Shown: positions 1-23,711, counted from the stretch's first letter. The stretch: DNA of 64,000 nucleotides from an uncultured bacterium (GCA_964554015.1 CAZKMO010000001.1:22756-86755); one strand, 5' to 3'. Translations and numbers: made by a program. Notes: generated by a model from the letters alone, not told the origin.

Positions 1-722
1 GCAACGGCAGTCCCTGGGGATACCATACCGGCAATCTGGTGTATCATACAGACGGGGGCACCTGGGAGATCGTGGACTGGAAGCCCAAGCCTGGTTTTGC
101 TAATTTCAATCAGGTCATGGTCAGAATGTTTGTCACCATGTTTTATCAGCAGCTTTCAATTTATTTATTCGGAGGTCGAGGTCCCAAATTTAATCCCTAT
201 GGCGATCTTCCAAAAATAAATGCACCGTATACTGCTGAGGAAGACACCGTGTTTCACGACATGTGGCGGTGTAACACCCAGGACAGCTCCGTGACCCGGT
301 GTGCTGATTTACCCGTGGCCTTGACTAATGCAGCCGGTGTGCTTCTGGATGATGAATTCTATCTCTTTGGGGGCATGAAATCAGACAGTAGCCTCAGTGA
401 TGCACTGTACCGATATAAAATTGAAGATACCCAGATAGAAACTATGGATCAGACTCCAAATGTTTTCTGCCTGTATCCCAATTATCCCAATCCCTTCAAT
501 CCAAAAACCACCATACAATATGCGATTCCCAAAGCCGGTCGTGTTAGTCTGCGTGTGTTCGATCTACAGGGAAAACAGGTGAAATTATTAGTGAATCAAT
601 ATCAATCTCCAGGCAATCACAGCATCTCCTTCAATGGAAGTGAACTGCCCAGCGGAGTATATTTTTATAAGTTGGAAATAGGGAGACATACTCAAATCCG
701 CAAGATGTTGTTGATTAAATAA
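1..722 (+). CDS. Kelch-repeat protein with a T9SS (Por) C-terminal sorting domain. It is 5'-partial: the reading frame is open from the window edge.
   Basis: The frame is open from nt 3 with no upstream stop. Kelch-like motifs are present (YLFGGRGPKF, FYLFGGMKSD). The C-terminus LYPNYPNPFNPKTTIQYAIP...GVYFYKLEI is a typical T9SS CTD. Confidence 0.6.
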   Translation, partial: NGSPWGYHTGNLVYHTDGGTWEIVDWKPKPGFANFNQVMVRMFVTMFYQQLSIYLFGGRGPKFNPYGDLPKINAPYTAEEDTVFHDMWRCNTQDSSVTRCADLPVALTNAAGVLLDDEFYLFGGMKSDSSLSDALYRYKIEDTQIETMDQTPNVFCLYPNYPNPFNPKTTIQYAIPKAGRVSLRVFDLQGKQVKLLVNQYQSPGNHSISFNGSELPSGVYFYKLEIGRHTQIRKMLLIK

Positions 723-1567: not shown

Positions 1568-2827
1568 ATGAAAGTACATTTATTTTTTCTGCTCATAGTA
1601 TCCTGTACACTAATGGTAAGCATGTGTTTTTCTCAAGCTGATGTTGCTTCCCAAATTACCCCGGAAGCCCTGGATGCCCGCATTGCCAAAATCCGGATGG
1701 GTGATATCATGGTTAAAACCAAACCCGATGCCGAGGTAAAGGTAAAACAGGTACGCCATGAATTTTTATTCGGTACTGCCATTACCGACAATCTGGCTGA
1801 AAAAGCCGGGAATGCCATGTCAGAGCAGGACAGAAAGATGTTTCTGAAAATTCTGGAAGAAAATTTCAACTATGCCGTACATGAGAACGCGTTGAAATGG
1901 TACGATACCGAAGTTGAATACAAAAAGGTGGATTATTACCTGGCGGACAGGATATATGAACTCTGTGAGGAACGTAATATACCTATGCGGGGTCACTGTG
2001 TATTTTGGGCTAAGGACAAGTACGCTATGCCCTGGCTGATGGAACTGGATAATGATGAACTCCGGGCTGCGGTAGTGCGCCGGGCAACCGATGTTGTAAA
2101 CCACTTTAAAGGCAGAATCGAAGAATTTGACCTGAATAACGAAATGATCAACGGCGATTTTTTCCGGCGCCGCTTAGGGTACGGCATTGTCAATGAAATG
2201 GCCTGGCTGGCAAAAGCGGCAAATCCGGAGGCTACATTATTTGTGAATGACTATGGAGTTCTGGTTGAAAACGGTTTTAATAAAAGCTCTTATATTACCC
2301 AGATCAAGAACCTGCTGGCAAATGGAGTGCCTATCGACGGGATCGGTTGTCAGGCTCATTTTGTTACTTCTGATAAAAATAATTCCGGTCCCAGAGCCAG
2401 TACCACATCCCGGCATGTGCAGGAAACTCTGAATGAGCTGGCCCAATTCAATCTGCCCATTAAAATCACCGAGTTTCTGGTTATTGCAGATACCGAAGAA
2501 GGAAAAGCCGAGGAACTGCGCCGATTTTTCCGGCTCTGTTTTGCTCATCCCAGTGTAGAAGCCATTATCATATGGGGCTTCTGGGAAGTGGGCCACTGGG
2601 TTCCGGAATCAGCCCTGTGGAAAAAAGACTGGACTCCCACCCAGCAGGCTCTGGCTTACCGCGACCTGGTATTCAAGCAATGGTGGACTGAAGTTTCCGG
2701 AAAAGCAGATAAAGAAGGCTTTTACCGAACCCGTGCTTTTTACGGCGACTATGAAATCACCTGTGAGGGGAAAACCAAAAAAGTAACCCTGAGTAAAAAA
2801 GAAAAATCCATAGAAGTCAGTTTTTAA
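1568..2827 (+). CDS. Glycoside hydrolase family 10-like protein (endo-1,4-beta-xylanase-like), secreted.
   Basis: There is a signal peptide. A GH10-type motif FNYAVHENALKWYDTE is present. The catalytic-type pairs NEM (FDLNNEMING) and ITEF (PIKITEFLV) are present. Confidence 0.6.
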   Translation: MKVHLFFLLIVSCTLMVSMCFSQADVASQITPEALDARIAKIRMGDIMVKTKPDAEVKVKQVRHEFLFGTAITDNLAEKAGNAMSEQDRKMFLKILEENFNYAVHENALKWYDTEVEYKKVDYYLADRIYELCEERNIPMRGHCVFWAKDKYAMPWLMELDNDELRAAVVRRATDVVNHFKGRIEEFDLNNEMINGDFFRRRLGYGIVNEMAWLAKAANPEATLFVNDYGVLVENGFNKSSYITQIKNLLANGVPIDGIGCQAHFVTSDKNNSGPRASTTSRHVQETLNELAQFNLPIKITEFLVIADTEEGKAEELRRFFRLCFAHPSVEAIIIWGFWEVGHWVPESALWKKDWTPTQQALAYRDLVFKQWWTEVSGKADKEGFYRTRAFYGDYEITCEGKTKKVTLSKKEKSIEVSF

Positions 2828-2861
2828 TAATTAATATTAAATGGAGGTTAAGATTACTGTC

Positions 2862-4751
2862 ATGAAGATTTATCTTAAAAAAATATTGCCTTTTAGTATG
2901 ATACTCTTTATAGGAATCTTTGTTACTTTAATTTACGCCGGGAACTCATCGGATGTTCATGTATGGGAGATGCAGGAGATTTTTCTGAAGGCAGAAAACA
3001 ATTACCAGAATTATTATAGGGATGTGCTGTGCTGGGTGGATCTTCAGGGACCCGATTTTTCCCATAGAATTTATGGTTTCTGGAATGGGGATAATGTATT
3101 TGTGGTGCGAGTGGTTGCCACTGAACCCGGTAAGTGGACCTGGAAAAGCGGCTCCAATCAGAAAAATGATATGGGGTTGAACCATCAAACCGGAGAATTT
3201 CAGGCGGTTGCCTGGACTGAAAAGGAAAAAAAGGACAATCCCAACCGCCGGGGCTTTATCCGTTCTATCCCTAATGGTCATGCTCTACAGTATGCGGACG
3301 GAACTCCTTTTTTTCTTATAGGCGATACTTGGCTGGCCGGAACTACCTGGCGGCTTCCCTTCCGAGGAGCTGCCGCTGCAGAAAATTATGAACCATCTCC
3401 GGGAATCGGTTTTGAGGATGCAGTGGCTTATCGTAAGAGGCAGGGATATAATTCGGTAAGCATGATTGCCTGTTTTCCCAATTGGGAATCGGATTGTTAT
3501 CCCAGCACCTATGCGGATTCTAACGGCATTTATTTGCGTAATGCCTGGGAAAAATTCGGTTACTATACCCAGGAAGGAAAGCTGACCGCCAAAAATATGC
3601 GGGATGAATACGGGAATCTGCCTTTCGCCATGTCAAAGAAGCATAAGGGAGTTGCTGATTTCAACCATATCAATCCTGAGTATTTCAAAAGTCTGGATAA
3701 AAAAATGCAGTACCTGTCCGAGCAGGGATTTGTCCCCCTGCTGGAAACAGTGAGAAGGGATAACTGTCCGGCCTGGAAAGCCTACTTTGATTTCAATGAG
3801 TCGTATGCCCGCTATGTACAATATCTCATTTCCCGATACGGTGCCTATAATATAATTTTTAGCGGGATTCATCTGGACTGGATCCCTAAAGAATACAGTC
3901 TGACTGCGGATGAATTCAATGAAGCCTTGACCTATCACTTAAAAAAATATGGCCCCCTGCCCTTTGGACAGCCCCATACCACCTTAATAAATAATTCCAC
4001 CTTTACCCAGTTCGGACATGCTGCAGACTGCCCCTGGCTCACCATGCACAGCGTAGGCAATAAACCCCGGGACCACCGTATTGCTGATTCTCTTCAGGTC
4101 CTCTTTCATCTTGATCCCCCCTACCCTGCCATTAATTTCGAACCTTATTATACGGGCTGGGACCATGAAATAAACAGGCCTAATGGTGAACGTCCCCCGG
4201 CAAATTCCCCCCGGGATAACTATTTCTCCCGGGCCCAGATGTACGGCTCGATTCTTTCCGGAGGACTTTCCGGGCATGTGCACGGCACTGGGGCTTACGA
4301 TATTACCACCACCGGTGAACCTGATGGTATGCGTCCGCATATCTGGGATGCTTTGAAATTCAAATCAGGGCAGTATATGCAGCATCTAAGTTCATTTGTT
4401 CTATCCCAGGGAGATACATATCAGCAGCTCCAGCCCTGTCCGGAAAATCTGCACCCGGAAAAAACTCCCCCCTATCCGGAAAAGGGCCTGGACGGGCGCT
4501 CCTATATGATGTGCACTCCTGAAAAAAATTTTGCCCTTCTTTATTTTGAAAATAAATCCTTGCTTCCCACCTTGAGCGGTCTTAAACCGGAAACCTCATA
4601 TACATTTCAATGGTATAACCCCCGCAATGGTAAGTGGGAAGAAAGTATGATAATTATGACTGATGGAGAAGGAACATTGGAACTGCCGCCCTTTCCTGAC
4701 GGACAAAATCCATCTGTCTCTGACTGGGCCGCAAAAATTTGCAATCATTAA
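2862..4751 (+). CDS. Putative glycoside hydrolase with DUF5060 N-terminal and DUF4038 catalytic-like domains (GH5/GH140-like). It has a signal/TM N-terminus.
   Basis: A GGAGG RBS lies about 15 nt upstream of ATG 2862; the ORF track's earlier in-frame start at 2841 is less likely. The sequence IYGFWNGDNVFVVRVVATEPGKWTWKSG is DUF5060-like. The sequence YADGTPFFLIGDTWLAG is DUF4038-like. Confidence 0.5.
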   Translation: MKIYLKKILPFSMILFIGIFVTLIYAGNSSDVHVWEMQEIFLKAENNYQNYYRDVLCWVDLQGPDFSHRIYGFWNGDNVFVVRVVATEPGKWTWKSGSNQKNDMGLNHQTGEFQAVAWTEKEKKDNPNRRGFIRSIPNGHALQYADGTPFFLIGDTWLAGTTWRLPFRGAAAAENYEPSPGIGFEDAVAYRKRQGYNSVSMIACFPNWESDCYPSTYADSNGIYLRNAWEKFGYYTQEGKLTAKNMRDEYGNLPFAMSKKHKGVADFNHINPEYFKSLDKKMQYLSEQGFVPLLETVRRDNCPAWKAYFDFNESYARYVQYLISRYGAYNIIFSGIHLDWIPKEYSLTADEFNEALTYHLKKYGPLPFGQPHTTLINNSTFTQFGHAADCPWLTMHSVGNKPRDHRIADSLQVLFHLDPPYPAINFEPYYTGWDHEINRPNGERPPANSPRDNYFSRAQMYGSILSGGLSGHVHGTGAYDITTTGEPDGMRPHIWDALKFKSGQYMQHLSSFVLSQGDTYQQLQPCPENLHPEKTPPYPEKGLDGRSYMMCTPEKNFALLYFENKSLLPTLSGLKPETSYTFQWYNPRNGKWEESMIIMTDGEGTLELPPFPDGQNPSVSDWAAKICNH

Positions 4752-4861
4752 GGTTAACCTGAATAAAATTATTAATAAACAGAGTATGCATACAAATATA
4801 TATAATTCATAATGGAAGTAAGTATATATAGTTTAGAAATTAAAAGGAATATTTCCGTATA

Positions 4862-5701
4862 ATGAAAGCCTGGTCCAATATTGAAGTTTCATCCCAGGAC
4901 TTAGAAATAAAAAAAATAAATGAATTCGAGAAAACCCTGGGGGAGATACCAGCTCAAGTTCGGCAGATTCGTGCGTTGATAACCAGATTTGAGATATGTC
5001 ACTTTAAATATCAGCAGCATTTAAAAAAAATCAAAGATTCAATTACCAACTTAGAACCGGCCCTAAATCCTGATAAAATAGGTGAACATCATATCCAAAA
5101 GGGAGAAAATGCCTGGAAAAAGGATAAAACCGGACGCAGTCTGCTGGGTCAGCAATATCTGTGGTCATTAATTAATTGGCTGGGAGATGATCCTGAAGTA
5201 ACCAAAAAGCATAATTATAAAAAGGATCTTAGTCAAAAAATTAAGCAATGGCTGGGAGATAAAAACCCTGATAAGCAAAGATTAGTCCGTTTATTAATAG
5301 CCAGATTGACCTGGGACTGGAATTCCTATGAAAAACTGCGGTCCGGGGGGCAAAATAAGGAACTTGAATTCCAAGCCTGCAGAATGGACATATGTCATCA
5401 TGCTTTTCCGGAACATCTCAATTCTTTGCTGCAGGCAATGGGAGTAATGAAACCGTTTAAAAATTTTGCGGGATGTGGAACCTATAATGAGGAAATCAAA
5501 AAAAATATTAAAAAGGAATTATCACAATTGTTCACTAGGTTGAAATCTAAAACCCTATCTCCTAAAAATAATACTTTGAATCGGAAAGAACACCTGGAAA
5601 CCTGGCTGTTAGCTTGTCTGGTAAAAACCATGAAAGAACAAATTGGGCTGACCAAATCTTTACCTGGATATTTTCGAGTAAAAGGAGGTATAAAAAAATG
5701 A
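4862..5701 (+). CDS. Hypothetical Lys-rich protein of 279 aa with no recognisable domain.
   Basis: This is a long ORF in a compact operon context. Its 3' end overlaps the GH88/105 gene start. There is no signal peptide. Confidence 0.35.
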   Translation: MKAWSNIEVSSQDLEIKKINEFEKTLGEIPAQVRQIRALITRFEICHFKYQQHLKKIKDSITNLEPALNPDKIGEHHIQKGENAWKKDKTGRSLLGQQYLWSLINWLGDDPEVTKKHNYKKDLSQKIKQWLGDKNPDKQRLVRLLIARLTWDWNSYEKLRSGGQNKELEFQACRMDICHHAFPEHLNSLLQAMGVMKPFKNFAGCGTYNEEIKKNIKKELSQLFTRLKSKTLSPKNNTLNRKEHLETWLLACLVKTMKEQIGLTKSLPGYFRVKGGIKK

Positions 5702-6822
5702 ATATAAAAAAACTAGTGGGTAATATGAGGGTCTTCTGTTTCTACCTCTTATTAATAATATTTTCAGCCGGATTCTTTGGGTGCAAAGAATCCAGTTCAT
5801 GGGAAAATAAAATTTTGAGAACCAAAGACACTTCACCTGAGACAATCGGAAGAATGGTCATTAATGATTTGTTGAATAGACCAGATTTAATGATGTATGT
5901 AACCGATTTCTGGACCGGCGTTCATTATGCGGAAGCCTGTGCCGGCTTCGGGGCAGCCCGGTTAGCCGGTCTTTTAAAGGACTCGCATAGTATGGACAGA
6001 TTGACTGCCCGCTACAACAAAGTAATCCAAGACAGTCTGGTAAAGGATGCAAATCATGTGGACGCCAATGTATACGGCATACTGCCGCTGGAATTGTACC
6101 TGCAAACCGGTCAGGAAAAATTCCTGCAGCAGGGGCTTGCTCTGGCTGACCAACAGTGGGAAGACACCCTGTCCAATGGACTGACCAGCCAGGTGCGTTA
6201 CTGGATCGATGATGTCTGGATGATCGGCAGTCTGCAGGTTCAGGCCTACCGAGTTACAGATAATGAAAAATATCTGGAAAGAGCTGCTAAAACTGTGGAA
6301 TCCTATCTTGAAAAATTACAGCAGCCCAATGGTTTGTTTTACCATGGAGAAAACGCTCCTTTTTTCTGGGGAAGAGGAAACGGCTGGGTGGCGGCAGGAA
6401 TGGCTGAACTTTTATCCCAACTGCCGGAAAGCAATCCCCATTATGCCTCCATTGTATCAGGCTATCAAAAAATGATGCATGCCTTACTGGAATATCAGGC
6501 TGACGATGGCATGTGGCGGCAGTTGATCGATAAAAAAGAGGCCTGGAAAGAGACCTCCTCCACTGCCATGTTTGGCTATGCTGTAACCGTGGGGGTTAAA
6601 AAGGGTATTTTATCCGACTCCACCTTTACTCCGGTGTATGAGAAAGCCTGGAAGGCCTTGACAGGATATATCAATCCACAGGGAAAAGTGACCAATGTCT
6701 GTGTAGGTACGGGTAAAAACAATAATATGGATTATTATCTCAATCGTCCCCGTACCACCGGGGATCTGCACGGTCAGGCTCCGGTACTCTGGTTTGCTTA
6801 TAGTCTGTTAGCCGAATATTAA
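5698..6822 (+). CDS. Glycosyl hydrolase family 88/105-like protein (unsaturated glucuronyl/rhamnogalacturonyl hydrolase-like), secreted.
   Basis: ATG 5698 is preceded by AAAGGAGG, so the ORF-track start at 5614 is likely too long. There is a signal peptide. The motifs WIDDVWMIG and GRGNGWVAAGMAEL are typical of the YteR/UGL fold. Confidence 0.55.
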   Translation: MNIKKLVGNMRVFCFYLLLIIFSAGFFGCKESSSWENKILRTKDTSPETIGRMVINDLLNRPDLMMYVTDFWTGVHYAEACAGFGAARLAGLLKDSHSMDRLTARYNKVIQDSLVKDANHVDANVYGILPLELYLQTGQEKFLQQGLALADQQWEDTLSNGLTSQVRYWIDDVWMIGSLQVQAYRVTDNEKYLERAAKTVESYLEKLQQPNGLFYHGENAPFFWGRGNGWVAAGMAELLSQLPESNPHYASIVSGYQKMMHALLEYQADDGMWRQLIDKKEAWKETSSTAMFGYAVTVGVKKGILSDSTFTPVYEKAWKALTGYINPQGKVTNVCVGTGKNNNMDYYLNRPRTTGDLHGQAPVLWFAYSLLAEY

Positions 6823-14950: not shown

Positions 14951-16861
14951 GTGAAAAAAAAATCTAAAAATATTAATTCTAAATTACCGTTTTCCAGACG
15001 AGAATTCATAAAAAAAACAGCCGGAGCCACTACTGGCTTACTTTTTTCTCCCTTTTTTGTTACAAAATATATAAAAGAACCCCGGAGAGTATCAGACAAT
15101 TCCCGGGTTGTTATGGTCAAGGATGATAGTGCCATTCCTACATCCGTTATTGATGAGAATGTTGTACAGGTTATGATGGATGTTGGTATCTGTGATCTTA
15201 CTGATATCGATAATGTGGGGGAAGCCTGGAAAAGTCTGTTCCCTGATCTCACTTTAAATTCTGTTATTGGCATTAAAGTAAACTGTATTAATAAATCGCT
15301 TTCCAGTCATCCCCGGGTTGCCAATGCCATTGTGCAGGGATTAAAACGTATGACGGTTGAAAATGAATCCTTTCCGGAAAATAATATAATAATCTGGGAT
15401 AGAACTAACCGGGAATTAAGAAATGCAGGATACACTATCAATACTAGTGATACTGGAGTCCGGTGTTTCGGAAGTAACCAAAATGGCGTCGGCTATTCCA
15501 AAAAATCCTATAATATTCATGGCAGCACCCAGAAACTCAGCCGGATCCTCACCGAATCCATTGATTATTTGATCAATCTCTCTGTATTAAAAAATCACGG
15601 AACTGCCGGCGTGACTTTAAGTATGAAAAATCATTACGGCACCTGCCAACAACCAGGACATATACATGGTAACTATTGTAACCCCTTTATACCAGCCTTA
15701 AATGCACTCTCACCCATCCGGGATAAACAAGTTGTTTGTATAAACGATGCCCTTATGGGAATTATTTCAGGGGGACCGGGAGGACCTCCTCAAATCACTC
15801 CCCAAAGTCTGATTCTGAGTACCGATCCTGTAGCTCTGGACAGCATAGGTGCTCAATTACTGGAGGACAACGGATGTAAATCCTTATATCGAGCTGCCTA
15901 TATTCACTCTGCTTCCCAAGAACCATATAATCTTGGTATAGATGATCCGGAGCAAATCGACTTGGTAACCATTACCTCGCCCTCTGTTCCCGGCTCGGTT
16001 TTTCTGGACCAGACCACTGTTACCCAGGGAGAGATGGTCAAGGTGAACTGGTCAGACTGGCCGGGAAAGGTGAACATCGCCCTTTATAAGGATGGCACTT
16101 TCTGGATGTATGCAGTTAAGGTCACAGACAGCAGCGGTACCCTGGATTTGGATACCACTGATTGGGAGATCAGAAATGATTACCAGATTAAGATCATGCT
16201 GCAGGCCAATGAAAATATCAGCCAGTCTTCTAGTACTTTCTCTGTTACCTCTCCATTTTCACCCGGCTCGGTTTCTCTGAACCAGACCACTGTCACCCAG
16301 GGAGAGTGGGTCAAGGTGAACTGGTCAGGCTGGCCGGGAAAGGTGAATATTGCCCTTTATAAGGGCGGCACTTTCTGGATATATGTTGCTAAGGAAGCAG
16401 ACAGCAGCGGTACCCTGAATTTGGATACCACTGATTGGGAGATCAGAGATGACTACCGGATCAAAATCGTTCTTTGTGCGGATGAAAATATCAGTCAATT
16501 CTCAAGTACCTTCTCTGTGGAAGAACCCACCGGGGAAACAGATCCCACCACCATAGAAGAACAAAATGGAGGAAAGATTCCGAAACGATTTCGACTATAT
16601 CAGAATTATCCCAATCCCTTCAATGCCAGCACTATAATTGCTTATCAATTAATGAAGTCATCCTACGTTGATCTGGGCATATACAATGTAAAAGGTTCAT
16701 TATTAAGGAGAATGGTGCATCAGCGACAGAATACTGGATTTCATCGCCTTAGATGGGATGGGACCAATACATTCGGCGTACCAGTTCCCAGTGGAATTTA
16801 TATAGTCCGTCTTACAGTGGATGGATACAGCCAAGCCAGAAAAATGCAGTTGCTGCGTTGA
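14951..16861 (+). CDS. DUF362-domain protein with a Tat signal peptide, two Kre9/KNH-like repeat domains and a T9SS C-terminal sorting domain.
   Basis: The Tat motif SRREFIKK plus a hydrophobic stretch is present. The DUF362-like core (VLKNHGTAGVTLSMKNHYG) is present. Two ~90-aa repeats (VTQGEMVKVNWSDWPGKVNIALYKDGTFW...) are present. The CTD LYQNYPNPFNAST...GIYIVRL is present. Confidence 0.55.
   Translation: MKKKSKNINSKLPFSRREFIKKTAGATTGLLFSPFFVTKYIKEPRRVSDNSRVVMVKDDSAIPTSVIDENVVQVMMDVGICDLTDIDNVGEAWKSLFPDLTLNSVIGIKVNCINKSLSSHPRVANAIVQGLKRMTVENESFPENNIIIWDRTNRELRNAGYTINTSDTGVRCFGSNQNGVGYSKKSYNIHGSTQKLSRILTESIDYLINLSVLKNHGTAGVTLSMKNHYGTCQQPGHIHGNYCNPFIPALNALSPIRDKQVVCINDALMGIISGGPGGPPQITPQSLILSTDPVALDSIGAQLLEDNGCKSLYRAAYIHSASQEPYNLGIDDPEQIDLVTITSPSVPGSVFLDQTTVTQGEMVKVNWSDWPGKVNIALYKDGTFWMYAVKVTDSSGTLDLDTTDWEIRNDYQIKIMLQANENISQSSSTFSVTSPFSPGSVSLNQTTVTQGEWVKVNWSGWPGKVNIALYKGGTFWIYVAKEADSSGTLNLDTTDWEIRDDYRIKIVLCADENISQFSSTFSVEEPTGETDPTTIEEQNGGKIPKRFRLYQNYPNPFNASTIIAYQLMKSSYVDLGIYNVKGSLLRRMVHQRQNTGFHRLRWDGTNTFGVPVPSGIYIVRLTVDGYSQARKMQLLR
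15963..16515 (+). repeat. Direct tandem duplication of about 270 bp, two copies at roughly 85-90% identity, inside the DUF362/T9SS gene.
   Basis: Copy 1 begins near 15963 and copy 2 near 16246. Both encode the SP(S/F)xPGSV(F/S)L(D/N)QTTVTQGE... domain. Confidence 0.8.
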
Positions 16862-17000: not shown

Positions 17001-17543
17001 ATGAATCGTAAATATGTTGTTCTGCTGTTTAGCATAATCTTAATTAGTTCTCTTACCTGTTCTAAAAAAAATTCTACCAATCCTGAAATAGTCACCATAA
17101 CCGATTTGCTTCCCCAGGATAATGAAATAAGCGGATGGGTGAGCACAGGAAATACCTGGTGGGCTACCAGCAGCAGTGAATTGAACCAATATATCAATGG
17201 AGAAGAACCCGATTACACTAAATATGGATTTAGGGAAGGAGCCATGCAGAGCTATTCCGGCACTGTATTGGAAAACTCAACTATTATGGAAGTTCGGGTA
17301 TTCGATCAGCAATCAGAGGAAAATGCGCAGGCATTGTTTCAGGAATTAGCTACCCGTTTAGTTAATCCCCTGGTCTGGTCTGAAGCAGGTGAAGAGGCAA
17401 GAATAGAACGATTTTTCCTCTCTCAGAAAATTATCTTCTGGAAATCGAAATATTTCGTATCACTCACTATTGATTCAGGTTTGGATGAGGCATTGAACGT
17501 TCTTAAAACCTTTGCTACCAATATGGATGCAAAAATTTCATAA
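17001..17543 (+). CDS. Hypothetical lipoprotein.
   Basis: The signal peptide ends in LTCS (lipobox). It lies between the two DUF362 genes. A GGAG RBS is present. Confidence 0.4.
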   Translation: MNRKYVVLLFSIILISSLTCSKKNSTNPEIVTITDLLPQDNEISGWVSTGNTWWATSSSELNQYINGEEPDYTKYGFREGAMQSYSGTVLENSTIMEVRVFDQQSEENAQALFQELATRLVNPLVWSEAGEEARIERFFLSQKIIFWKSKYFVSLTIDSGLDEALNVLKTFATNMDAKIS

Positions 17544-17561: not shown

Positions 17562-18521
17562 ATGCAGAATGAAAATATAAAATTAAAAAATCCCATATCT
17601 CGAAGAGCCTTTCTGGAATACTCGGCCAAATTGGGGAGTGCCCTAACCGCAGGGATGCTTTTCCCAGGATTGCCATCAGAAAGCATCCCCTTATCCCCTT
17701 CTTCACCAGTAGTGGCTGTAGTTAAGGGAACCCCCCCCAACGCAGTCAGCAAAGCCATCGAGCTGGTGGGGGGGATAGGCAGTTTCGTACAACCTGGCAG
17801 TACAGTACTGATTAAACCCAATGTATCTTTTCCTAATTCCAAAACCTGGGGAACCACTACCAGCCCGGAAGTTGTAAAAGCTGTTACCCAGCTTACCCTG
17901 GATGCTGGTGCCCAAAGAGTAATCATTGCAGATAATACCATGCGTAAAACCGATATCTGTTTCCATAAAACTGGTATAATGGAAATGCTTTCTAATATGG
18001 ATAAGGTAAACATCATTCCCATACAACAGGAAAATTTTTTCAGGGAAGTTCCGGTTCCCGGGGGAAAAGCACTCACCAAGGTGAAAATAGCCAAGCTTAT
18101 CCAGCGAGCTGATTTGATTATCAATCTGCCCTGTGCCAAATCTCATTCAGCCACTCAGGTAAGTTTTGGTTTGAAAAACCTGATGGGACTAATCTGGGAT
18201 AGAAGTTATTTACATCAGGGAACTGATCTGCATACTGCCATTGCTGAACTGGCTTTGATAATGCAACCCCAGCTTACCATACTGGATGCCACTCGTGCCC
18301 TGATAACTGCCGGCCCTACCGGTCCGGGCAAAGTGCAGAATTTGAACACCATTGTAGCTAGTACTAATATCTTGGCTGTGGATGCCTATGCCGTAGGCCT
18401 GGCACCCTGGAATAATCGTTTTCTGACCGCAAAAACAGTTAAACATCTTTACCGGGCTTCCCAATTAGGAATTGGAGAGATAAATATTGATAATATGATC
18501 ATCCGCAAAGCTATCCTCTAA
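17562..18521 (+). CDS. DUF362-domain protein with a Tat signal peptide. It is a paralog of 14951..16861.
   Basis: The Tat-like signal ISRRAFLEYSAKLGSALTAG is present. The core VVKGTPPNAVSKAIELVGGIGSFVQPGSTVLIKPNVSF...GLKNLMG aligns with the upstream paralog. Confidence 0.55.
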   Translation: MQNENIKLKNPISRRAFLEYSAKLGSALTAGMLFPGLPSESIPLSPSSPVVAVVKGTPPNAVSKAIELVGGIGSFVQPGSTVLIKPNVSFPNSKTWGTTTSPEVVKAVTQLTLDAGAQRVIIADNTMRKTDICFHKTGIMEMLSNMDKVNIIPIQQENFFREVPVPGGKALTKVKIAKLIQRADLIINLPCAKSHSATQVSFGLKNLMGLIWDRSYLHQGTDLHTAIAELALIMQPQLTILDATRALITAGPTGPGKVQNLNTIVASTNILAVDAYAVGLAPWNNRFLTAKTVKHLYRASQLGIGEINIDNMIIRKAIL

Positions 18522-18576
18522 TAAAAGGTATGGGATTAGAATGTTATAAATATGACATTTTATATAAGGAAAATAA

Positions 18577-21500
18577 ATTATAAAATCCCTTTCCAAGGTT
18601 ATTTGTACCAGGAATATCTGGCTTTCCTGGTTATTTGTATTTCTGAGCCTATTTCCCGCTTTTTCCCAGGTAAAAAAATACTGGCCTAAACGGCGGTTCC
18701 CCCACCTGGTTGTAAAAGATAAACTCTGGATTGGTACTCCCCGGGGATTATATCAGTATCATGCTGAGGATGACACCTGGACAATATACGGCAAGCACAA
18801 TGGTCTCCCTTCCAACCGTATTCAACTAATTCAATATGACGGAGAATATCTCTGGGTAGTCACCCCCGAAGGTACAGCATTTGGTGATATTCGTCTGAAT
18901 AAATGGCTGGTTTATAATCAAGAAAACGGTCTTCCCAGCAATAAGGTTAATTCCATAGCTTTTCAGGAAGACTATGTATGGGTAGCCACCGACAGGGGAG
19001 CTGCCCGTTTTGATAAACTCATTCAGGAATGGGAACACTTTACCCTTGAAGATGGTCTTCCTGACTCCGTAGTTACAGATGTGATTGTGGAAGAGGATCT
19101 GGTGTATCTTTCCACCTATAAAGGTCTGGTCGAATATGATATAAATTTTGAAAAATGGCGTGTATATCCTATTCTTCATGACAGTATATCCTCGGTAATA
19201 AAATTTATATATCCCACCACAGATTACCTCTGGTTGTTTACTGATCAGGGCCCCCTGAGATTTAACAAACAGCTTCATTCTATTCTTTCCTTCCCCGAAA
19301 ATGATCAACTGAAATTTTCCAACATACAAGACCTGGTGGTTGACAATGAAAAATTTTGGTCTGCCACCACTGCAGGAGTATTTATCTATGATCCGGCCAA
19401 CATTCTCTGGCGTCCATTTCAGGAACAAATTCATCTTCCCGATTCATCAGTAAAAGCTATGGCCTTTAGCCAGGGCAAGCGTTGGTTTGTCACTGAAACC
19501 GGTATAGCAGTATTTGATGAGCAAATAAAAAGCTGGGATTATTATGGGAAAGCACATGGACTCTCCTCCCAACAGTATGACGCCATAGCCACTTTCCGGA
19601 GTCAGGTTTTTCTGATAAATAATTCAACTATTGACTATTATATACCTCAGGAAAATCGCTGGAGAGTATATCCTCTGAAAGATGTAAGCATATTATCACA
19701 GAGAAAAACTCCTTATGTTTCCCTGGATCAGGAAAAGGGAAGTTTTGTACAAATTACACCCAAGGCGCAACTCGGGATCAGCGGCAGCCGTTGGAATTCT
19801 CGTTTTAATTTCTCCCACTCTTTTGATCTGGAGACGGATCAATCCCAAAGCGAAAATGATATAGCTCACCGAAGAGATGTGAAATCTCAGCTGACTCTTC
19901 CTAAAGGACAAACAATTAATGGATTCTATGATGATACAGATTTCAATCAGACCATGTATGGTATTCGATATAAAGGGTTGAAGAAGGATCTGGTGCAGGA
20001 AGTAAATTGGGGAGATATTCGTTATGAACAGGGTAAGACTCATCTGATTCCGTCTATCGGCATATTCGGAGTTTCAGGTCGGTTGGAAACCGGATCCAAA
20101 ACAGAGCAATACGGCCGGAGTCTGGTATCAGCCAAGGTCTGGAGTGGTGAAAAAACAACAGGGCAGGACACTGAATTTTTCACCGGAAATATGCATGAGG
20201 CCCGAATTTCCCTTCGAGATGTCGATTACATCCCCTATACCTATTTTTGCTGGGATACTACTGATACAGGCATTGATCTGGATAAAAACTCGGAACAGAT
20301 CTTTGTTGATGATGGCAATGAACAAACCAATACCCGCAATACGCTGATTGACTTTACCATAGGAGGCATAAAAGGAGATTTCGATAAACTCCTGCCTTTT
20401 GAGGATTATGTTGTTGATCATGATAAAGGTATATTAATGCTGACCAGACCACTATCTCCATCAGCTGTCATGATCCTGAAAGCAAAATCGGCAGGCTTAC
20501 CCTGGGAACGGGTGTTAAAAACTACTGAGAAATCTTCTTATACCATGCTGAATCGATACTTTGTGGACGGAATGAAAATTATTCCTTCCAGTTTCAGCCT
20601 GCAGATTACTGATTCGACTGGAAAGGATTTACCTATTTTCCAATTCGGCCTGGATGGGAATAGAGATGGAAGAGTTGATCCGGAATGGATAGATACCAGA
20701 GAAGGGATTCTGTCTTTTCCCTCCCCCCAACCTTTTCCCCAGGCTGTATATCAGATAGAAAATCCCCTGTCTTCTTTTCTGATGCATATCCAGTTTGAAA
20801 CCGAAATTTCTATTTTTATGTTAAAACATAACCGCTTGATTCGGGGAACGGAGACGGTTACCGTGGATGGGGATATTCTGACCGCAGGGCAAGATTATAT
20901 AATTGATTATACCAGTGGTTCCCTGCTTATTCTTAAGGAAGGAATAGTTGCAGAAGATAGTGAGATAAAAGTAAAGTATGAATTTTACCAGAATTCATCG
21001 GAAAAATTTCATTTAGGCGGAATTGGATTCGGACCTTCGGATAATATACTGATGGAAGTGAATGGATTTGCTTATGATGAAGAAAACTCGGGAAGTGATT
21101 CTGGATCCATGCAAGGTATTAATTTTTTTGGGGAATTTAAAGGGAAAATAAAGGGATTGGATTTCAAATTAACTCCTGAACTTGCCCAGAGTCTGGGAAG
21201 GGAAAGCAAGGGCAGCAGTTTTCATATCAGAACCGATATAAGTTCACAACGGATACGACTGTATTCGGAATATGAAAAATATGATTCCGAATTTAAAAAT
21301 CTTTTTCCCAGAAAATTCCAGTTAGGTGAAATGGAGAAGCGGTTAGCTGCAGGAGTAACTGTATTACCCCTAGATTTTCTGGATATTACAGGTCAATGGT
21401 CTCAGCAGCAAACCCCAAAAACTATTTCGGGAAAACATAATAAGGAAGAAAACCTGAGTGGAAAACTTTTACTGAATAAAAAACAACTGCCAGCTTTATC

Positions 21501-22773
21501 CCTTTCTTTAAGACACCGTACTCTTAAGACAGAAGAATATCAATCCTCCAAGCAAACCGTAAAGGGAGAAGTGGAATATAAGATTCCTGCCTCAATCTTG
21601 GATATGCTTTCCCTTAAATCCATACGTATTTACGGAGTATGGAGAAAAAGCTGGGAGTCCAGGGATAGTACTAATACTCATGCTGATCATTCCCCTAATA
21701 GATTATATGACAACCGCTATTTTCGCATTGATTGTTCTCCTGTAAATCTTATACAGATTAATGCTTATTATCGGGGAGAAAGCGTAACCATGCAGAATCT
21801 CGATAACCGGGGAAAACGTCCCTTAACCCGGCAGCAGAAATGGTTTTTGGATGCAACTGTAGACAGGATTCAGGGAATTAACCTGAATGTACGTTACCAG
21901 AGTGAAATTGCTCAAAGGTTTGATTTATCACCTTCCGGGATTTCTTCTATAACCCTGCAACGACTACTGCAGTCAAACATTCGTTTTTTCCCCGGTCAGT
22001 GGGTACGATTCTTATCGCCTTTTACCTTTGAAATAAATCTTAATCCCGGCTGGAAAGGAACCCTGGAAGATAATACCCGGAAATTGAAGTGGAAGGAAAA
22101 ATTATGGCAGCTAACCGAATCAAAAGCCCTGAATGTAGGGGAAGATAATATGCTGTATCAATTACGGGGTGAGTGGAGACCCACTGCTTCTCTCTTTCTA
22201 TATACCGGACTGGAATTTTTTCGTTTTGACTCCAAACATCTGGATAGCAGATCTCAAACCAGAGGTAAACGGTTTCATAATAAAGTTGAATACCAACCAT
22301 CCCCTCAATCCCTGATCACTCTGCAATATTTTTACACTGAAGATAATATCGATCTCTATAAACATACCATCAGATACAATCCTATGCTCTGGGTGGAGCA
22401 TCGATGGAACGACAAACTGCAGACTAAAATCAATCTGGCCTATCTGCAAGAAGATAAAACCTTAGTAAGCATAAAAGAAATTACATCCAATTTTTCTCCC
22501 TTGGTAGGAATAACTTATCGATGGCGTCATTCTGAAACCGGTAAAATAAGAGCAGAAGTCCGCAATGACCTTTCTTCCTCATTTTATCAGCATTCATCTT
22601 CGAATTTGAATACAGCTGTTAACAGTTATACCAATACCCTGGCTTTGGATATTTACCCGACTTCAATCTTTATTCTCCGTTTCCGTTTATCCACCATATT
22701 CAGGGATAAACTGGATTCTGTAAAAGATAATCTGTCCAATTCCCTGGAATTAAGATTGACAGCACAATTTTAA
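18577..22773 (+). CDS. Very large secreted protein of about 1400 aa. It has N-terminal two-component-regulator-propeller (Reg_prop-like) repeats and a long C-terminal region with outer-membrane beta-barrel character ending ...RLTAQF. The start codon is uncertain.
   Basis: The ORF track calls GTG 19081. The same frame is open back to the stop at 18574-18576. That upstream stretch encodes a signal peptide (RNIWLSWLFVFLSLFPAFSQ) and further propeller repeats (YVWVATDRGAARFD, LWIGTPRGLYQY). There is no ATG/GTG/TTG in that frame upstream of 19081. Confidence 0.5.
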   Translation: MIKSLSKVICTRNIWLSWLFVFLSLFPAFSQVKKYWPKRRFPHLVVKDKLWIGTPRGLYQYHAEDDTWTIYGKHNGLPSNRIQLIQYDGEYLWVVTPEGTAFGDIRLNKWLVYNQENGLPSNKVNSIAFQEDYVWVATDRGAARFDKLIQEWEHFTLEDGLPDSVVTDVIVEEDLVYLSTYKGLVEYDINFEKWRVYPILHDSISSVIKFIYPTTDYLWLFTDQGPLRFNKQLHSILSFPENDQLKFSNIQDLVVDNEKFWSATTAGVFIYDPANILWRPFQEQIHLPDSSVKAMAFSQGKRWFVTETGIAVFDEQIKSWDYYGKAHGLSSQQYDAIATFRSQVFLINNSTIDYYIPQENRWRVYPLKDVSILSQRKTPYVSLDQEKGSFVQITPKAQLGISGSRWNSRFNFSHSFDLETDQSQSENDIAHRRDVKSQLTLPKGQTINGFYDDTDFNQTMYGIRYKGLKKDLVQEVNWGDIRYEQGKTHLIPSIGIFGVSGRLETGSKTEQYGRSLVSAKVWSGEKTTGQDTEFFTGNMHEARISLRDVDYIPYTYFCWDTTDTGIDLDKNSEQIFVDDGNEQTNTRNTLIDFTIGGIKGDFDKLLPFEDYVVDHDKGILMLTRPLSPSAVMILKAKSAGLPWERVLKTTEKSSYTMLNRYFVDGMKIIPSSFSLQITDSTGKDLPIFQFGLDGNRDGRVDPEWIDTREGILSFPSPQPFPQAVYQIENPLSSFLMHIQFETEISIFMLKHNRLIRGTETVTVDGDILTAGQDYIIDYTSGSLLILKEGIVAEDSEIKVKYEFYQNSSEKFHLGGIGFGPSDNILMEVNGFAYDEENSGSDSGSMQGINFFGEFKGKIKGLDFKLTPELAQSLGRESKGSSFHIRTDISSQRIRLYSEYEKYDSEFKNLFPRKFQLGEMEKRLAAGVTVLPLDFLDITGQWSQQQTPKTISGKHNKEENLSGKLLLNKKQLPALSLSLRHRTLKTEEYQSSKQTVKGEVEYKIPASILDMLSLKSIRIYGVWRKSWESRDSTNTHADHSPNRLYDNRYFRIDCSPVNLIQINAYYRGESVTMQNLDNRGKRPLTRQQKWFLDATVDRIQGINLNVRYQSEIAQRFDLSPSGISSITLQRLLQSNIRFFPGQWVRFLSPFTFEINLNPGWKGTLEDNTRKLKWKEKLWQLTESKALNVGEDNMLYQLRGEWRPTASLFLYTGLEFFRFDSKHLDSRSQTRGKRFHNKVEYQPSPQSLITLQYFYTEDNIDLYKHTIRYNPMLWVEHRWNDKLQTKINLAYLQEDKTLVSIKEITSNFSPLVGITYRWRHSETGKIRAEVRNDLSSSFYQHSSSNLNTAVNSYTNTLALDIYPTSIFILRFRLSTIFRDKLDSVKDNLSNSLELRLTAQF

Positions 22774-23635: not shown

Positions 23636-23711
23636 TGGGGTGTAGCATAATTGGCAATGCGCCTGGCTGTTAACCAGGATATTGGAAGTTCGAGTCTTCC
23701 CGCCCCAGCCA
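23636..23711 (+). tRNA. tRNA-Asn (anticodon GTT).
   Basis: A manual cloverleaf fold was made. The acceptor pairing is TGGGGTG/CGCCCCA. The D stem is GCAT/ATGC. The anticodon stem is CCTGG/CCAGG with loop CTGTTAA. The T arm is GGAAG-TTCGAGT-CTTCC. The 3' end is discriminator G + CCA. Confidence 0.75.

What the first reader, a model, noticed from the sequence alone, without database searches (positions are those of the whole stretch)
18577..22773. Unusual architecture: periplasmic/surface beta-propeller repeats fused to a ~900-aa C-terminal domain with outer-membrane barrel hallmarks
The N-terminal third carries repeats normally found in Bacteroidetes hybrid two-component sensors (Reg_prop/Y_Y_Y type). 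There is no HisKA/HATPase or DNA-binding output. Instead the remaining ~900 aa are rich in alternating aromatic/polar beta-strand-like segments. The protein ends ...LELRLTAQF, and a terminal Phe is a classic OMP beta-signal. This could be a novel outer-membrane receptor that uses a sensor-type propeller for ligand capture.
Basis: inference. Interest (0 to 1): 0.5.

Follow-up and report, generated by a model that had tools for sequence, protein, structure and literature searches.

The report
Half-size SprA-like barrel with propeller
This gene encodes an outer-membrane protein whose giant beta-barrel is a half-size relative of SprA, the pore of the type IX protein secretion system; it is fused to a sensor-type propeller, almost always sits next to Tat-exported DUF362 enzymes, and I found no description of this combination, which occurs in many uncultured bacteria.

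Summary
The reading frame 18577-22773 is open for 1,398 codons. It encodes a signal peptide and an 8-bladed Reg_prop-type propeller (residues ~43-366). A ~1,000-residue all-beta domain follows and ends in a conserved OMP beta-signal (terminal Phe).

The barrel is not BamA-, LptD- or SusC-like. Its AlphaFold model (pLDDT 90) matches only the type IX secretion translocon SprA over its full length (Foldseek E 1e-24, TM 0.59-0.64). The next-best barrels reach TM 0.26 or less. Profile comparisons confirm homology: 97% probability to Sov, and 99.8% to a 1,682-aa SprA-like protein encoded two genes from a porV gene.

By analogy with SprA's periplasmic N-terminus, the propeller should be periplasmic, not a surface ligand trap.

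About 85 full-length homologues were listed, all named hypothetical or unnamed. The named ones come from FCB-group or unclassified MAGs. In 30 of 33 assessable loci the gene follows the same cassette: Tat-signal DUF362 enzyme(s) with a T9SS C-terminal sorting domain, a DUF6599 lipoprotein, and a Tat-signal periplasmic DUF362.

Best reading (inferred): a cassette-dedicated, SprA-derived outer-membrane conduit that delivers the folded DUF362 cargo to the cell surface.

Rivals: an uptake channel, a redox-complex sheath, the lineage's general translocon, or a surface anchor.

Verdict: new variant of a known kind; function untested.

The parts
14951..16861 (+). Cassette gene 1, the presumed cargo. 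It has a twin-arginine signal (SRREFIKK), a DUF362 enzyme domain, two ~100-aa internal repeats and a T9SS type-A C-terminal sorting domain.
   Evidence: Pfam DUF362 E 8e-20, FlgD_ig, Por_Secre_tail E 6e-5. NCBIfam TIGR04183 scores 32.7 bits against a cut-off of 23. Sequence. An RR motif is present in 38 of 38 orthologues. The copy number (1-3) and position of this gene vary between loci.
17001..17543 (+). Cassette gene 2: a DUF6599 lipoprotein with an invariant lipobox Cys.
   Evidence: Pfam DUF6599 E 5e-6, 26.7 bits, just below the 27-bit cut-off. An alignment of 26 orthologues has an invariant Cys20 followed by x-Lys. No solved-structure relative was found by sequence.
17562..18521 (+). Cassette gene 3: a periplasmic DUF362 paralogue with a twin-arginine signal (SRRAFLEY) and no sorting domain. 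Where the cassette is present it lies directly upstream of the barrel gene; in two loci a polyferredoxin gene intervenes.
   Evidence: Pfam DUF362 E 1e-47. Sequence. An RR motif is present in 30 of 34 orthologues; 3 of the 4 misses are cut at a locus edge and 1 is a split gene. Lys85, Asn87, Lys193, His195, Lys205, Asn206, Asp242 and Asp274 are at least 97% conserved across both paralogues, and there is no conserved Cys.
18577..18666 (+). Signal peptide of the target (…WLSWLFVFLSLFPAFS|Q). No canonical start codon precedes it.
   Evidence: Homologues have equivalent signal peptides ending …S/A-Q. The ATG of the L001 orthologue aligns with AAT in the window.
18703..19674 (+). Eight-bladed Reg_prop-type beta-propeller (residues ~43-366), predicted to be periplasmic.
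   Evidence: AF2 model pLDDT 91.4, pTM 0.85, 8 x 4 strands. Foldseek best hits are the HTCS sensor propellers (E 1e-15), with PorZ at 4e-10. PDB profile hit 4A2L at E 6e-30. The periplasmic location is inferred from SprA's periplasmic N-terminus.
19789..20217 (+). First ~7 barrel strands (residues ~405-547).
   Evidence: DSSP of model mdfa09cd64a70. This stretch lies within the segment homologous to Sov/SprA.
20218..20961 (+). A ~250-residue domain inserted between barrel strands (residues ~548-795). It carries the DYxxDYTxGxL motif shared with SprA and is probably an extracellular cap remnant.
   Evidence: The NCBIfam SprA model hits residues 754-802 (E 3e-8). tblastn of Parabacteroides Sov hits window 20419-20973. 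hhalign results are. The extracellular side is inferred from strand parity (7 strands before, 31 after).
20962..22773 (+). The remaining ~29-31 barrel strands (residues ~796-1398), the C-terminal beta-signal …LELRLTAQF, and the stop codon.
   Evidence: AF2 pLDDT mostly above 90. Weak Pfam BBP2 porin hit at residues 1227-1385. The beta-signal is conserved. Foldseek gives a whole-model match to SprA.

Best explanation
What it is (confidence about 0.9). The gene encodes an outer-membrane protein made of three parts: a Sec signal peptide, an eight-bladed Reg_prop-type propeller, and a giant beta-barrel of roughly 36-38 strands. The barrel is a trimmed homologue of SprA/Sov, the type IX secretion translocon. 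It keeps the barrel wall and one SprA-type inserted domain. It lacks most of SprA's cap, and the propeller replaces the SkpA/SprE-binding N-terminus.

How it works (inferred, confidence about 0.4). The protein is the outer-membrane conduit of a self-contained four-gene module. Both DUF362 enzymes fold in the cytoplasm, probably acquire a cofactor there, and cross the inner membrane by the Tat pathway. The copy or copies carrying a T9SS C-terminal sorting domain then pass through this SprA-like pore to the cell surface. The fused periplasmic propeller, the DUF6599 lipoprotein and the sorting-domain-less DUF362 paralogue act on the periplasmic side as gate, plug or adaptor. In the canonical system separate subunits (Plug, SprE, SkpA) do these jobs.
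For: Shown:
- The AF2 model of residues 375-1398 has pLDDT 90.1 and pTM 0.77 and is almost entirely long strands.
- The four best Foldseek PDB hits are SprA chains (8GL6, 8GL8, 6H3I, 6H3J; E 1e-24 to 3e-14; TM normalised to the query 0.53-0.64). The next classes (SlpA, MtrB, LptD) reach TM 0.26 or less.
- hhalign of the family against Parabacteroides Sov gives 97% probability, E 3e-11 to 5e-11, over ~373 columns. That Sov scores 2,561 bits on TIGR04189.
- hhalign against P0211, a 1,682-aa SprA-like protein, gives 99.8% probability, E 5e-30. P0211 passes the SprA cut-off (210 bits against 200) and lies two genes from a porV gene.
- A signal peptide and a conserved beta-signal are present.
- The organism has a T9SS: PorV at 42016-43074 and cargo with sorting domains are in the same window.
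- The cassette is conserved. DUF362_peri sits directly upstream of the family gene in 30 of 33 assessable loci, drawn from MAGs labelled KSB1, Latescibacterota, Bacteroidota, Calditrichota, Zixibacteria, Ignavibacteria and WOR-3/Stahlbacteria.
- The order DUF6599, DUF362_peri, barrel is fixed and tightly spaced, whereas the DUF362 gene with the sorting domain varies in copy number and position, as a client would.
- Twin-arginine motifs are essentially universal in both DUF362 paralogues.

From the literature (PMC10994853):
- SprA is a 36-strand pore for folded proteins bearing a sorting domain.
- Its N-terminus is periplasmic and recruits SkpA and SprE.
- Both PorV loops and SprA itself bind the sorting domain.
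Against: - No function was tested; the secretion role rests on homology and gene linkage.
- The organism should already have a general T9SS able to export folded cargo with sorting domains, so the need for a dedicated pore is unexplained.
- No PorV paralogue lies next to any cassette.
- Sequence-level homology to SprA covers only residues ~454-838. For the remaining ~560 residues the link is structural only.
- Model coordinates could not be inspected, so barrel closure, strand number and a lateral opening are inferred from DSSP and TM-scores.
- A membrane polyferredoxin (Fer4_5) lies inside or beside the cassette in 6 loci. This hints at a redox process that a pure secretion model does not explain.
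- Reg_prop propellers in known proteins bind small glycans, which fits a sensing or uptake role equally well.
Confidence: 0.45

Rival explanations
1. A PUL-like uptake system. The surface-anchored DUF362 enzyme(s) modify or release an extracellular substrate, perhaps a glycan or hydroxy-acid. The barrel imports the product, the periplasmic propeller and the DUF6599 lipoprotein bind it, and the periplasmic DUF362 processes it further. This is closest to the first reader's 'receptor' idea.
For: - The layout (surface enzyme, lipoprotein, outer-membrane barrel, periplasmic enzyme paralogue) mirrors Sus-like loci.
- The nearest relatives of the propeller are glycan-sensing HTCS periplasmic domains.
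- DUF362 shares a Pfam clan with the LarA 2-hydroxy-acid racemase N-terminal domain (PMC11770544). It occurs fused to CBM9 and dockerin in lignocellulose-degrading communities (PMC5742341).
- Glycoside hydrolases lie elsewhere in the window.
Against: - The only characterised relative of the barrel is a protein exporter.
- There is no TonB box or plug domain.
- A pore of ~36 strands is far larger than any known solute importer and would need tight gating.
- Flanking genes other than the cassette are not conserved, so no transporter or catabolic genes co-travel.
Confidence: 0.2
2. A sheath for a trans-outer-membrane enzymatic or redox complex, analogous to MtrB in MtrCAB. The periplasmic DUF362 would insert from below and the surface DUF362 would dock on top. 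In some lineages an inner-membrane NapH-like polyferredoxin would feed the complex.
For: - There are two DUF362 paralogues, one periplasmic and one surface-targeted. Both are Tat substrates, so both are probably cofactor-loaded.
- DUF6599, DUF362_peri and the barrel are tightly coupled genes.
- Fer4_5 polyferredoxin genes lie inside the cassette in L047, L035 and L006. In L022, L030 and L032 they lie in an adjacent DUF362 + Fer4_5 module.
- MtrB is among the better non-SprA structural hits.
Against: - Neither DUF362 paralogue has conserved Cys or heme motifs. The conserved residues are Lys, His, Asn and Asp, typical of an enzyme active site rather than an electron wire.
- Most cassettes, including the window's, have no polyferredoxin within reach.
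- No cofactor is known for DUF362.
Confidence: 0.12
3. It is the lineage's general, minimal T9SS translocon, replacing long SprA and serving all cargo with sorting domains.
For: - It is homologous to SprA.
- The window has PorV and several cargo proteins with sorting domains, but no long SprA within 64 kb.
- Shorter SprA forms (1.5-1.8 kaa) exist in other phyla.
Against: - The strict linkage to the DUF362 cassette in 30 of 33 loci is not expected of a housekeeping translocon.
- The family also occurs in Bacteroidales and Bacteroidota MAGs. From general knowledge, T9SS-positive members of that phylum carry long Sov/SprA.
- No PorV gene adjoins it, unlike the short SprA-like gene in L048, which has one two genes away.
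- 64 kb is too little sequence to call SprA absent.
Confidence: 0.1
4. It is a cargo-specific surface anchor or partner barrel. The DUF362 cargo would be exported by the ordinary T9SS and then held on this barrel, as type-B cargo is held by adjacent PorP/SprF-like barrels.
For: - There is a precedent for cargo genes lying next to a dedicated outer-membrane partner (PMC9143113 abstract).
- The DUF362 cargo genes vary in number around a fixed barrel gene.
Against: - The sorting domain is type A (TIGR04183). From general knowledge of T9SS biology, type-A cargo is normally attached to lipopolysaccharide by PorU.
- A barrel of ~36 strands with a periplasmic propeller is far more than an anchor needs.
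- PorP-like barrels are small and unrelated.
Confidence: 0.08

Closest known systems
SprA/Sov, the type IX secretion system outer-membrane translocon (PDB 6H3I, 6H3J, 8GL6, 8GL8; NCBIfam TIGR04189)
   Same: - Giant single-chain beta-barrel fold; it is the only full-length structural match (TM 0.59-0.64).
- Homologous first barrel strands and inserted DYxxDYTxGxL domain.
- Found in an organism with a T9SS, and genetically linked to cargo with sorting domains.
   Different: - 1,398 aa against about 2,300-2,400 aa.
- Scores 31 bits against the 200-bit family cut-off.
- Most of the cap and insert domains are missing.
- The SkpA/SprE-binding N-terminus is replaced by a propeller.
- It is tied to one cassette rather than being a stand-alone housekeeping gene.
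- No adjacent PorV.
Uncharacterised short SprA-like proteins (about 1,450-1,830 aa). The named cluster members come from MAGs labelled Elusimicrobiota, Firestonebacteria, Caldisericota or just 'bacterium' (e.g. P0211, MFH1783638.1).
   Same: - Closest sequence relatives outside the family (E 1e-45 to 1e-28; hhalign 99.8%).
- Also trimmed relative to Bacteroidota SprA.
   Different: - The match begins near their N-terminus (about residue 100), leaving no room for a ~340-residue propeller, and Pfam finds none in the three checked.
- They score 134-210 bits on the SprA model.
- P0211 lies two genes from a porV gene, not beside DUF362 genes.
- All are annotated 'hypothetical'.
Periplasmic sensor domains of Bacteroides hybrid two-component systems (BT4663 4A2L, BT4673 3OTT/3VA6, BT3049 3V9F)
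   Same: The Reg_prop-type propeller repeats match by sequence profile (E 6e-30) and by fold (E 1e-15).
   Different: - One eight-bladed propeller instead of two propellers plus a Y_Y_Y domain.
- No transmembrane helix, kinase, receiver or AraC output.
- Fused to an outer-membrane barrel.
PorZ (T9SS attachment-complex component, PDB 5M11)
   Same: Weak Pfam match to its N-terminal propeller (E 5e-7) and fold match (E 4e-10). Both belong to T9SS organisms.
   Different: From general knowledge, PorZ is a surface protein with two propellers and its own sorting domain, and it has no barrel. The match here is generic to propellers.
Large barrels that work with a lipoprotein or an inserted partner (LptD-LptE, MtrB-MtrA/MtrC)
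   Same: - A big barrel encoded with a lipoprotein and a periplasmic partner.
- Both appear as lower-ranked structural hits.
   Different: TM 0.21 or less over the model, no sequence relationship, and 26 strands against about 36-38.

Membership tests
SprA/Sov T9SS translocon (TIGR04189 equivalog) | Scores at or above the curated cut-off (200 bits) on the family model | tested here: not met
   31.4 bits, one short stretch at residues 754-802. A genuine Sov scores 2,561 bits.
SprA/Sov T9SS translocon (TIGR04189 equivalog) | Single giant (36-strand) transmembrane beta-barrel fold | tested here: met
SprA/Sov T9SS translocon (TIGR04189 equivalog) | Detectable sequence homology to SprA | tested here: met
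   hhalign 97% to Sov. hhalign 99.8% to P0211, which itself passes the SprA cut-off. Homology covers residues ~454-838 only.
SprA/Sov T9SS translocon (TIGR04189 equivalog) | Length about 2,300-2,400 aa, a large extracellular cap, and an extended N-terminus that binds SkpA and SprE | tested here: not met
   1,398 aa with a single ~250-aa insert, and the N-terminus is a propeller. SprA features are taken from PMC10994853.
SprA/Sov T9SS translocon (TIGR04189 equivalog) | Works with PorV docked at a lateral opening and is required for export of cargo with sorting domains | not testable with these tools
   PorV is encoded about 20 kb away in the window. No PorV paralogue lies beside any cassette. 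A lateral opening cannot be judged without coordinates.
Hybrid two-component sensor (HTCS) | Reg_prop propeller(s) | tested here: met
Hybrid two-component sensor (HTCS) | Y_Y_Y domain, transmembrane helix, HisKA/HATPase, receiver and AraC-type output | tested here: not met
   None detected at E<=1 in Pfam or NCBIfam.
BAM-dependent outer-membrane beta-barrel protein (generic) | N-terminal signal peptide, barrel domain, and a C-terminal beta-signal ending in an aromatic residue | tested here: met
   Signal peptide. Barrel. Terminal residue Phe in 61 and Leu in 16 of 78 sequences, with an alternating hydrophobic pattern.
TonB-dependent receptor / SusC | N-terminal plug domain with TonB box inside a 22-strand barrel | tested here: not met
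BamA/TamA (Omp85) and LptD | POTRA domains with a 16-strand barrel, or an OstA/LptD N-terminal domain with a 26-strand barrel | tested here: not met

The most novel reading that the evidence does not exclude
The cassette is an autonomous envelope machine not yet described. A SprA-derived pore with a built-in periplasmic propeller gate would work together with a lipoprotein and a periplasmic DUF362. It would export Tat-folded, cofactor-loaded DUF362 enzymes and then stay coupled to them on the cell surface. The result would be a trans-outer-membrane catalytic or redox unit, fed in some lineages by an inner-membrane polyferredoxin. It would act independently of the canonical T9SS motor and PorV. 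This would make SprA-like barrels a broad, modular superfamily rather than a T9SS-only part.
Probability: 0.2. Interest if true: 0.85.

Novelty: new variant of a known kind. Interest (0 to 1): 0.62.

Why it matters
SprA is described as the largest known single-chain beta-barrel (bioRxiv 10.64898/2026.03.07.710327). So far it has been studied only as a ~2,400-residue protein within the Bacteroidota T9SS.

- **A minimal SprA.** A naturally trimmed ~1,000-residue version indicates which parts of SprA are the irreducible core: the barrel wall and one conserved insert. It is also a much smaller target for structural and mechanistic work on how folded proteins cross the outer membrane.
- **A testable client.** The fixed genetic coupling to Tat-exported DUF362 enzymes gives a concrete client. 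It is also a first functional handle on two domains of unknown function, DUF362 and DUF6599, in widespread but uncultured sediment and soil phyla.
- **A possible new export route.** The cargo combines a Tat signal with a T9SS sorting domain. If confirmed, that would be a two-step route for folded, cofactor-bearing proteins. One recent paper describes T9SS substrates as Sec-dependent (PMC12618676 abstract).

Tried and rejected
- **Sequence search of the family profile against PDB.** Only the propeller matched (HTCS sensors). Nothing matched the barrel at E<=1.
- **Fe-S or electron-carrier role for DUF362.** Rejected as the main reading because no Cys is conserved in either paralogue.
- **TonB-dependent receptor, SusC, BamA, TamA or LptD membership.** Rejected.
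- **Dedicated PorV paralogue beside the cassette.** None found.
- **Canonical SprA in the window or in the fetched flanks.** None found, but the sequence available is too short to conclude absence.
- **Literature searches** for DUF6599, DUF362 with outer membrane, SprA paralogues, SprA-like or 34/38/40-strand barrels, and Latescibacteria with SprA. Nothing describes this family.
- **C-terminal-only profile built from locus translations.** It ran after pruning to 11 rows.
- **Rfam and promoter/terminator scans around the gene.** They added nothing beyond a tRNA-Asn.

Full report

Translating 18577-22773 on the + strand gives 1,398 codons without a stop, ending …LELRLTAQF*. The mechanical ORF list starts the ORF only at a GTG at 19081. 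The reason is that no ATG, GTG or TTG lies between the upstream stop (TAA at 18574-18576) and that point.

The upstream part is clearly coding. It encodes a signal peptide (…WLSWLFVFLSLFPAFS|Q) that aligns with the signal peptides of homologues. In the closest orthologue (70% identity) an ATG sits where the window has AAT. The gene therefore either starts at a near-cognate codon (ATT 18577 or 18604, ATA 18580, ATC 18619) or carries a sequence error at its start.

The protein is not a chance ORF. A database search returned about 85 listed full-length homologues of 1,350-1,420 aa, at 70% down to 26% identity. All are annotated 'hypothetical' or unnamed. The named ones come from MAGs labelled Latescibacteria, KSB1, Zixibacteria, Bacteroidales or just 'bacterium'.

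**2. N-terminal part**

- A profile of the family hits the periplasmic propellers of Bacteroides hybrid two-component sensors (4A2L at E 6e-30; 3OTT, 3VA6, 3V9F).
- Pfam gives PorZ_N_b_propeller at E 5e-7.
- An AlphaFold2 model of residues 25-440, built with 76 sequences, has pLDDT 91.4 and pTM 0.85. It shows 32 strands arranged as eight four-stranded blades (residues ~43-366). A small linker sheet and the first barrel strands follow.
- The best Foldseek hits for this model are BT4673, BT4663 and BT3049 (E about 1e-15). PorZ scores 4e-10.
- No Y_Y_Y, HisKA, HATPase, receiver or DNA-binding domain is detectable.

**3. C-terminal part**

The AlphaFold2 model of residues 375-1398 (78 sequences) has pLDDT 90.1 and pTM 0.77. 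It consists almost entirely of long beta-strands: about 7-8 before a ~250-residue inserted domain (protein residues ~548-795) and 31 after it.

Foldseek against the full PDB is decisive:
- The four best hits are all chains of SprA, the type IX secretion translocon (8GL6_A at E 1e-24, then 8GL8_A, 6H3I_A and 6H3J_A). TM-scores normalised to the 1,024-residue query are 0.53-0.64.
- The next classes are SlpA (30 strands), MtrB (26) and LptD (26), with TM 0.26 or less.

Sequence evidence agrees:
- The NCBIfam SprA model touches residues 754-802 (E 3e-8, far below the family cut-off).
- tblastn with a genuine Parabacteroides Sov (2,561 bits on TIGR04189) hits window 20419-20973.
- hhalign of the family against that Sov gives 97% probability, E 3e-11 to 5e-11. 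It aligns family residues ~454-838 with Sov residues ~180-706.

A full HMMER scan of 1.84 billion cluster representatives with a barrel-only profile found 835 relatives at E<=1e-3, 382 of them at E<=1e-10. They fall into three groups:
- the family proper;
- a 1,240-1,330-aa divergent branch whose members also have ~380 residues ahead of the barrel match;
- a tier of 1,450-1,830-aa proteins in which the barrel match starts near residue 100. The named cluster members come from MAGs labelled Elusimicrobia, Firestonebacteria, Caldiserica or just 'bacterium'.

The three third-tier proteins tested score 134-210 bits on the SprA model. One of them, P0211, lies two genes from a porV gene and aligns to the family at 99.8% probability, E 5e-30. 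The chain family ↔ short SprA-like ↔ canonical SprA is therefore well supported.

The C-terminus carries a conserved OMP beta-signal. The last residue is Phe in 61 and Leu in 16 of 78 sequences, with hydrophobic residues at -2, -4, -6 and -8.

Strand parity suggests the insert is extracellular, that is, a remnant of the SprA cap. With 31 strands after the insert, 7 before it and both termini periplasmic, the insert falls on the outer side.

**4. Topology of the propeller**

In SprA the N-terminus is periplasmic, where it is wrapped by SkpA and contacts SprE (PMC10994853). By homology, the propeller here precedes the first barrel strand and should hang from the periplasmic rim. It takes the place of the SkpA/SprE docking region.

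**5. Neighbourhood**

The three genes upstream in the window are:
- **14951-16861.** Twin-arginine signal (SRREFIKK), DUF362 domain, two internal repeats, and a T9SS type-A sorting domain (TIGR04183, 32.7 bits against a cut-off of 23).
- **17001-17543.** A DUF6599 lipoprotein.
- **17562-18521.** Twin-arginine signal (SRRAFLEY) and a DUF362 domain, with no sorting domain.

I fetched 41 loci that carry the family gene: six by looking up individual homologues, 34 from a scan of 185,579 species genomes, and one WOR-3 locus (two duplicate earlier ones, leaving 39 distinct). I searched all of them with the window's proteins.
- DUF362_peri lies directly upstream of the family gene in 30 of 33 loci that have enough flank. 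The exceptions are L014, L019 and L034.
- DUF6599 precedes DUF362_peri, often overlapping it.
- The DUF362 gene with the sorting domain is present in 1-3 copies. It may lie upstream, downstream or on the opposite strand.
- The remaining flanking genes differ from locus to locus.
- The source MAGs are labelled KSB1, Latescibacterota, Bacteroidota/Bacteroidales, Calditrichota, Zixibacteria, Ignavibacteria and WOR-3/Stahlbacteria.

RR-x-F-L-type Tat motifs are present in 38 of 38 cargo copies and 30 of 34 periplasmic copies. Three of the four misses are truncated at a locus edge and one is a split gene.

Both paralogues share Lys, Asn, His and Asp residues that are at least 97% conserved (Lys85, Asn87, Lys193, His195, Lys205, Asn206, Asp242, Asp274). 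Neither has a conserved Cys. DUF362 sits in the same Pfam clan as the N-terminal domain of LarA racemases (PMC11770544). It has been seen fused to CBM9 and dockerin (PMC5742341). These proteins therefore look like cofactor-bearing enzymes, not Fe-S carriers.

A NapH-like membrane polyferredoxin (Fer4_5) lies inside the cassette in three loci. In three others it lies in an adjacent DUF362 + Fer4_5 module. The window has none.

The window also encodes PorV (42016-43074, minus strand) and other cargo with sorting domains, so the organism has a T9SS. No PorV paralogue accompanies any cassette.

**6. Most likely mechanism**

Shown:
- The protein is an outer-membrane member of the SprA superfamily with a fused Reg_prop propeller.
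- It is genetically locked to Tat-exported DUF362 proteins, one class of which carries a T9SS sorting domain.

Inferred: the barrel is the outer-membrane conduit of this module.
- The invariant trio (lipoprotein, periplasmic DUF362, propeller-barrel) would form the machine.
- The variable-copy DUF362 gene with the sorting domain would be the client.
- The client would fold and load its cofactor in the cytoplasm, be exported by Tat, and pass through the SprA-like pore to the surface.
- The propeller, alone or with DUF6599 and DUF362_peri, would gate or plug the periplasmic mouth and recruit the client. In the canonical system separate subunits (Plug, SprE, SkpA) do this.

I put about 0.9 on the structural identity and about 0.4 on this function.

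Weak points:
- The general T9SS should already handle such cargo.
- No PorV gene is linked.
- The polyferredoxin association is unexplained.
- Nothing here has been tested experimentally.

**7. Rivals**

- (a) A PUL-like uptake route: surface enzyme, barrel, then periplasmic propeller, lipoprotein and enzyme. The glycan-sensor ancestry of the propeller and the Sus-like gene logic support it. The exporter ancestry of the barrel, the lack of a plug or TonB box, and the very large pore weaken it.
- (b) An MtrB-like sheath for a trans-membrane DUF362-DUF362 complex fed by a polyferredoxin. The paralogue pair and the Fer4_5 linkage support it. The lack of redox motifs, and of Fer4_5 in most loci, weakens it.
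- (c) The lineage's general minimal translocon. The strict cassette linkage and the family's presence in Bacteroidales MAGs weaken it. I could not exclude it, because I could not search the carrier genomes for a second SprA.
- (d) A cargo-specific surface anchor, like the PorP/SprF partners of type-B cargo.

**8. Comparison and novelty**

The protein works like, and is homologous to, SprA/Sov. It is not a member of the SprA equivalog family. It scores 31 bits against a 200-bit cut-off, is half the length, lacks most of the cap, and has a different N-terminus. It is not an HTCS, a TonB-dependent receptor, an Omp85 protein or LptD.

I found no paper describing SprA-like short barrels, this fusion, DUF6599, or DUF362 in an outer-membrane context. 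Every database name is 'hypothetical protein'.

I class it as a new variant of a known kind. It is of real interest to secretion and outer-membrane specialists: a minimal SprA, a dedicated client, and a possible Tat-plus-T9SS route. Its function rests on inference.

Noticed in passing
window 18552-18620: The target gene has no ATG, GTG or TTG ahead of its signal peptide. The orthologue's ATG aligns with AAT (18616-18618). An out-of-frame ATG at 18552 opens a 45-codon ORF. Translation may start at ATT, ATA or ATC, or there may be an assembly error.
   Followed up: partly
window 14951-16861, and orthologues in L001-L047: The same protein carries a textbook twin-arginine (Tat) signal and a T9SS type-A sorting domain, in 38 of 38 orthologues. 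One recent paper describes T9SS substrates as Sec-dependent, so this may be a Tat-then-T9SS export route.
   Followed up: partly
L048:5751-10799 (P0211); also P0207, P0219, P0261 and others: SprA-like proteins of about 1,450-1,830 aa form a tier whose named cluster members come from MAGs labelled Elusimicrobia, Firestonebacteria, Caldiserica or 'bacterium'. The three tested score 134-210 bits on the SprA model, and P0211 lies two genes from a porV gene. This suggests T9SS-like translocons outside the FCB group. All are annotated hypothetical.
   Followed up: partly
L041:949-4506 (Armatimonadetes MAG): A 1,185-aa protein shares the SprA-type DYxxDYTxGxL domain and the following strands with the family (hhalign 96%, E 2.5e-9). 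It is another short SprA-related barrel in a non-FCB phylum.
   Followed up: partly
L047:8547-10004, L035:1569-2987, L006:5296-6927; also L022, L030 and L032 (minus strand, downstream): A NapH-like multi-pass polyferredoxin (Fer4_5) recurs inside or beside the cassette. In three loci it pairs with an extra Tat-DUF362 gene. This hints at a redox input to DUF362 enzymes. The window has none.
   Followed up: partly
L047:13915-16660 (complete WOR-3 genome CP070795.1): Directly downstream of the WOR-3 family member lies a Pal/YbgF/TolQ(ExbB)/TolR(ExbD)/TolA-like cluster. This may be coincidental, or it may be an energising system. It was not seen in other loci.
   Followed up: no
window 42016-43074 (-), 38695-41859 (-), 39-722 (+): A PorV homologue (Pfam E 2.5e-31) and two further cargo proteins with T9SS sorting domains (an FG-GAP protein and a Kelch protein) show that the organism has a type IX secretion system.
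   Followed up: yes
window 23636-23711 (+): A tRNA-Asn (GTT) lies in the AT-rich 1-kb gap between the target and the glnA-gltB-gltD block.
   Followed up: yes
window 1568-6822: A cluster of glycoside hydrolase genes (GH10, apiosidase-like with DUF5060, GH88) lies 12-17 kb upstream. It is not conserved next to the cassette in other loci.
   Followed up: no
N-termini of family members: The predicted signal-peptidase site is very often followed by Gln (…FSQ, …AQN, …FAQ). From general knowledge, this recalls the Bacteroidota habit of an N-terminal Gln that is cyclised to pyroglutamate.
   Followed up: no
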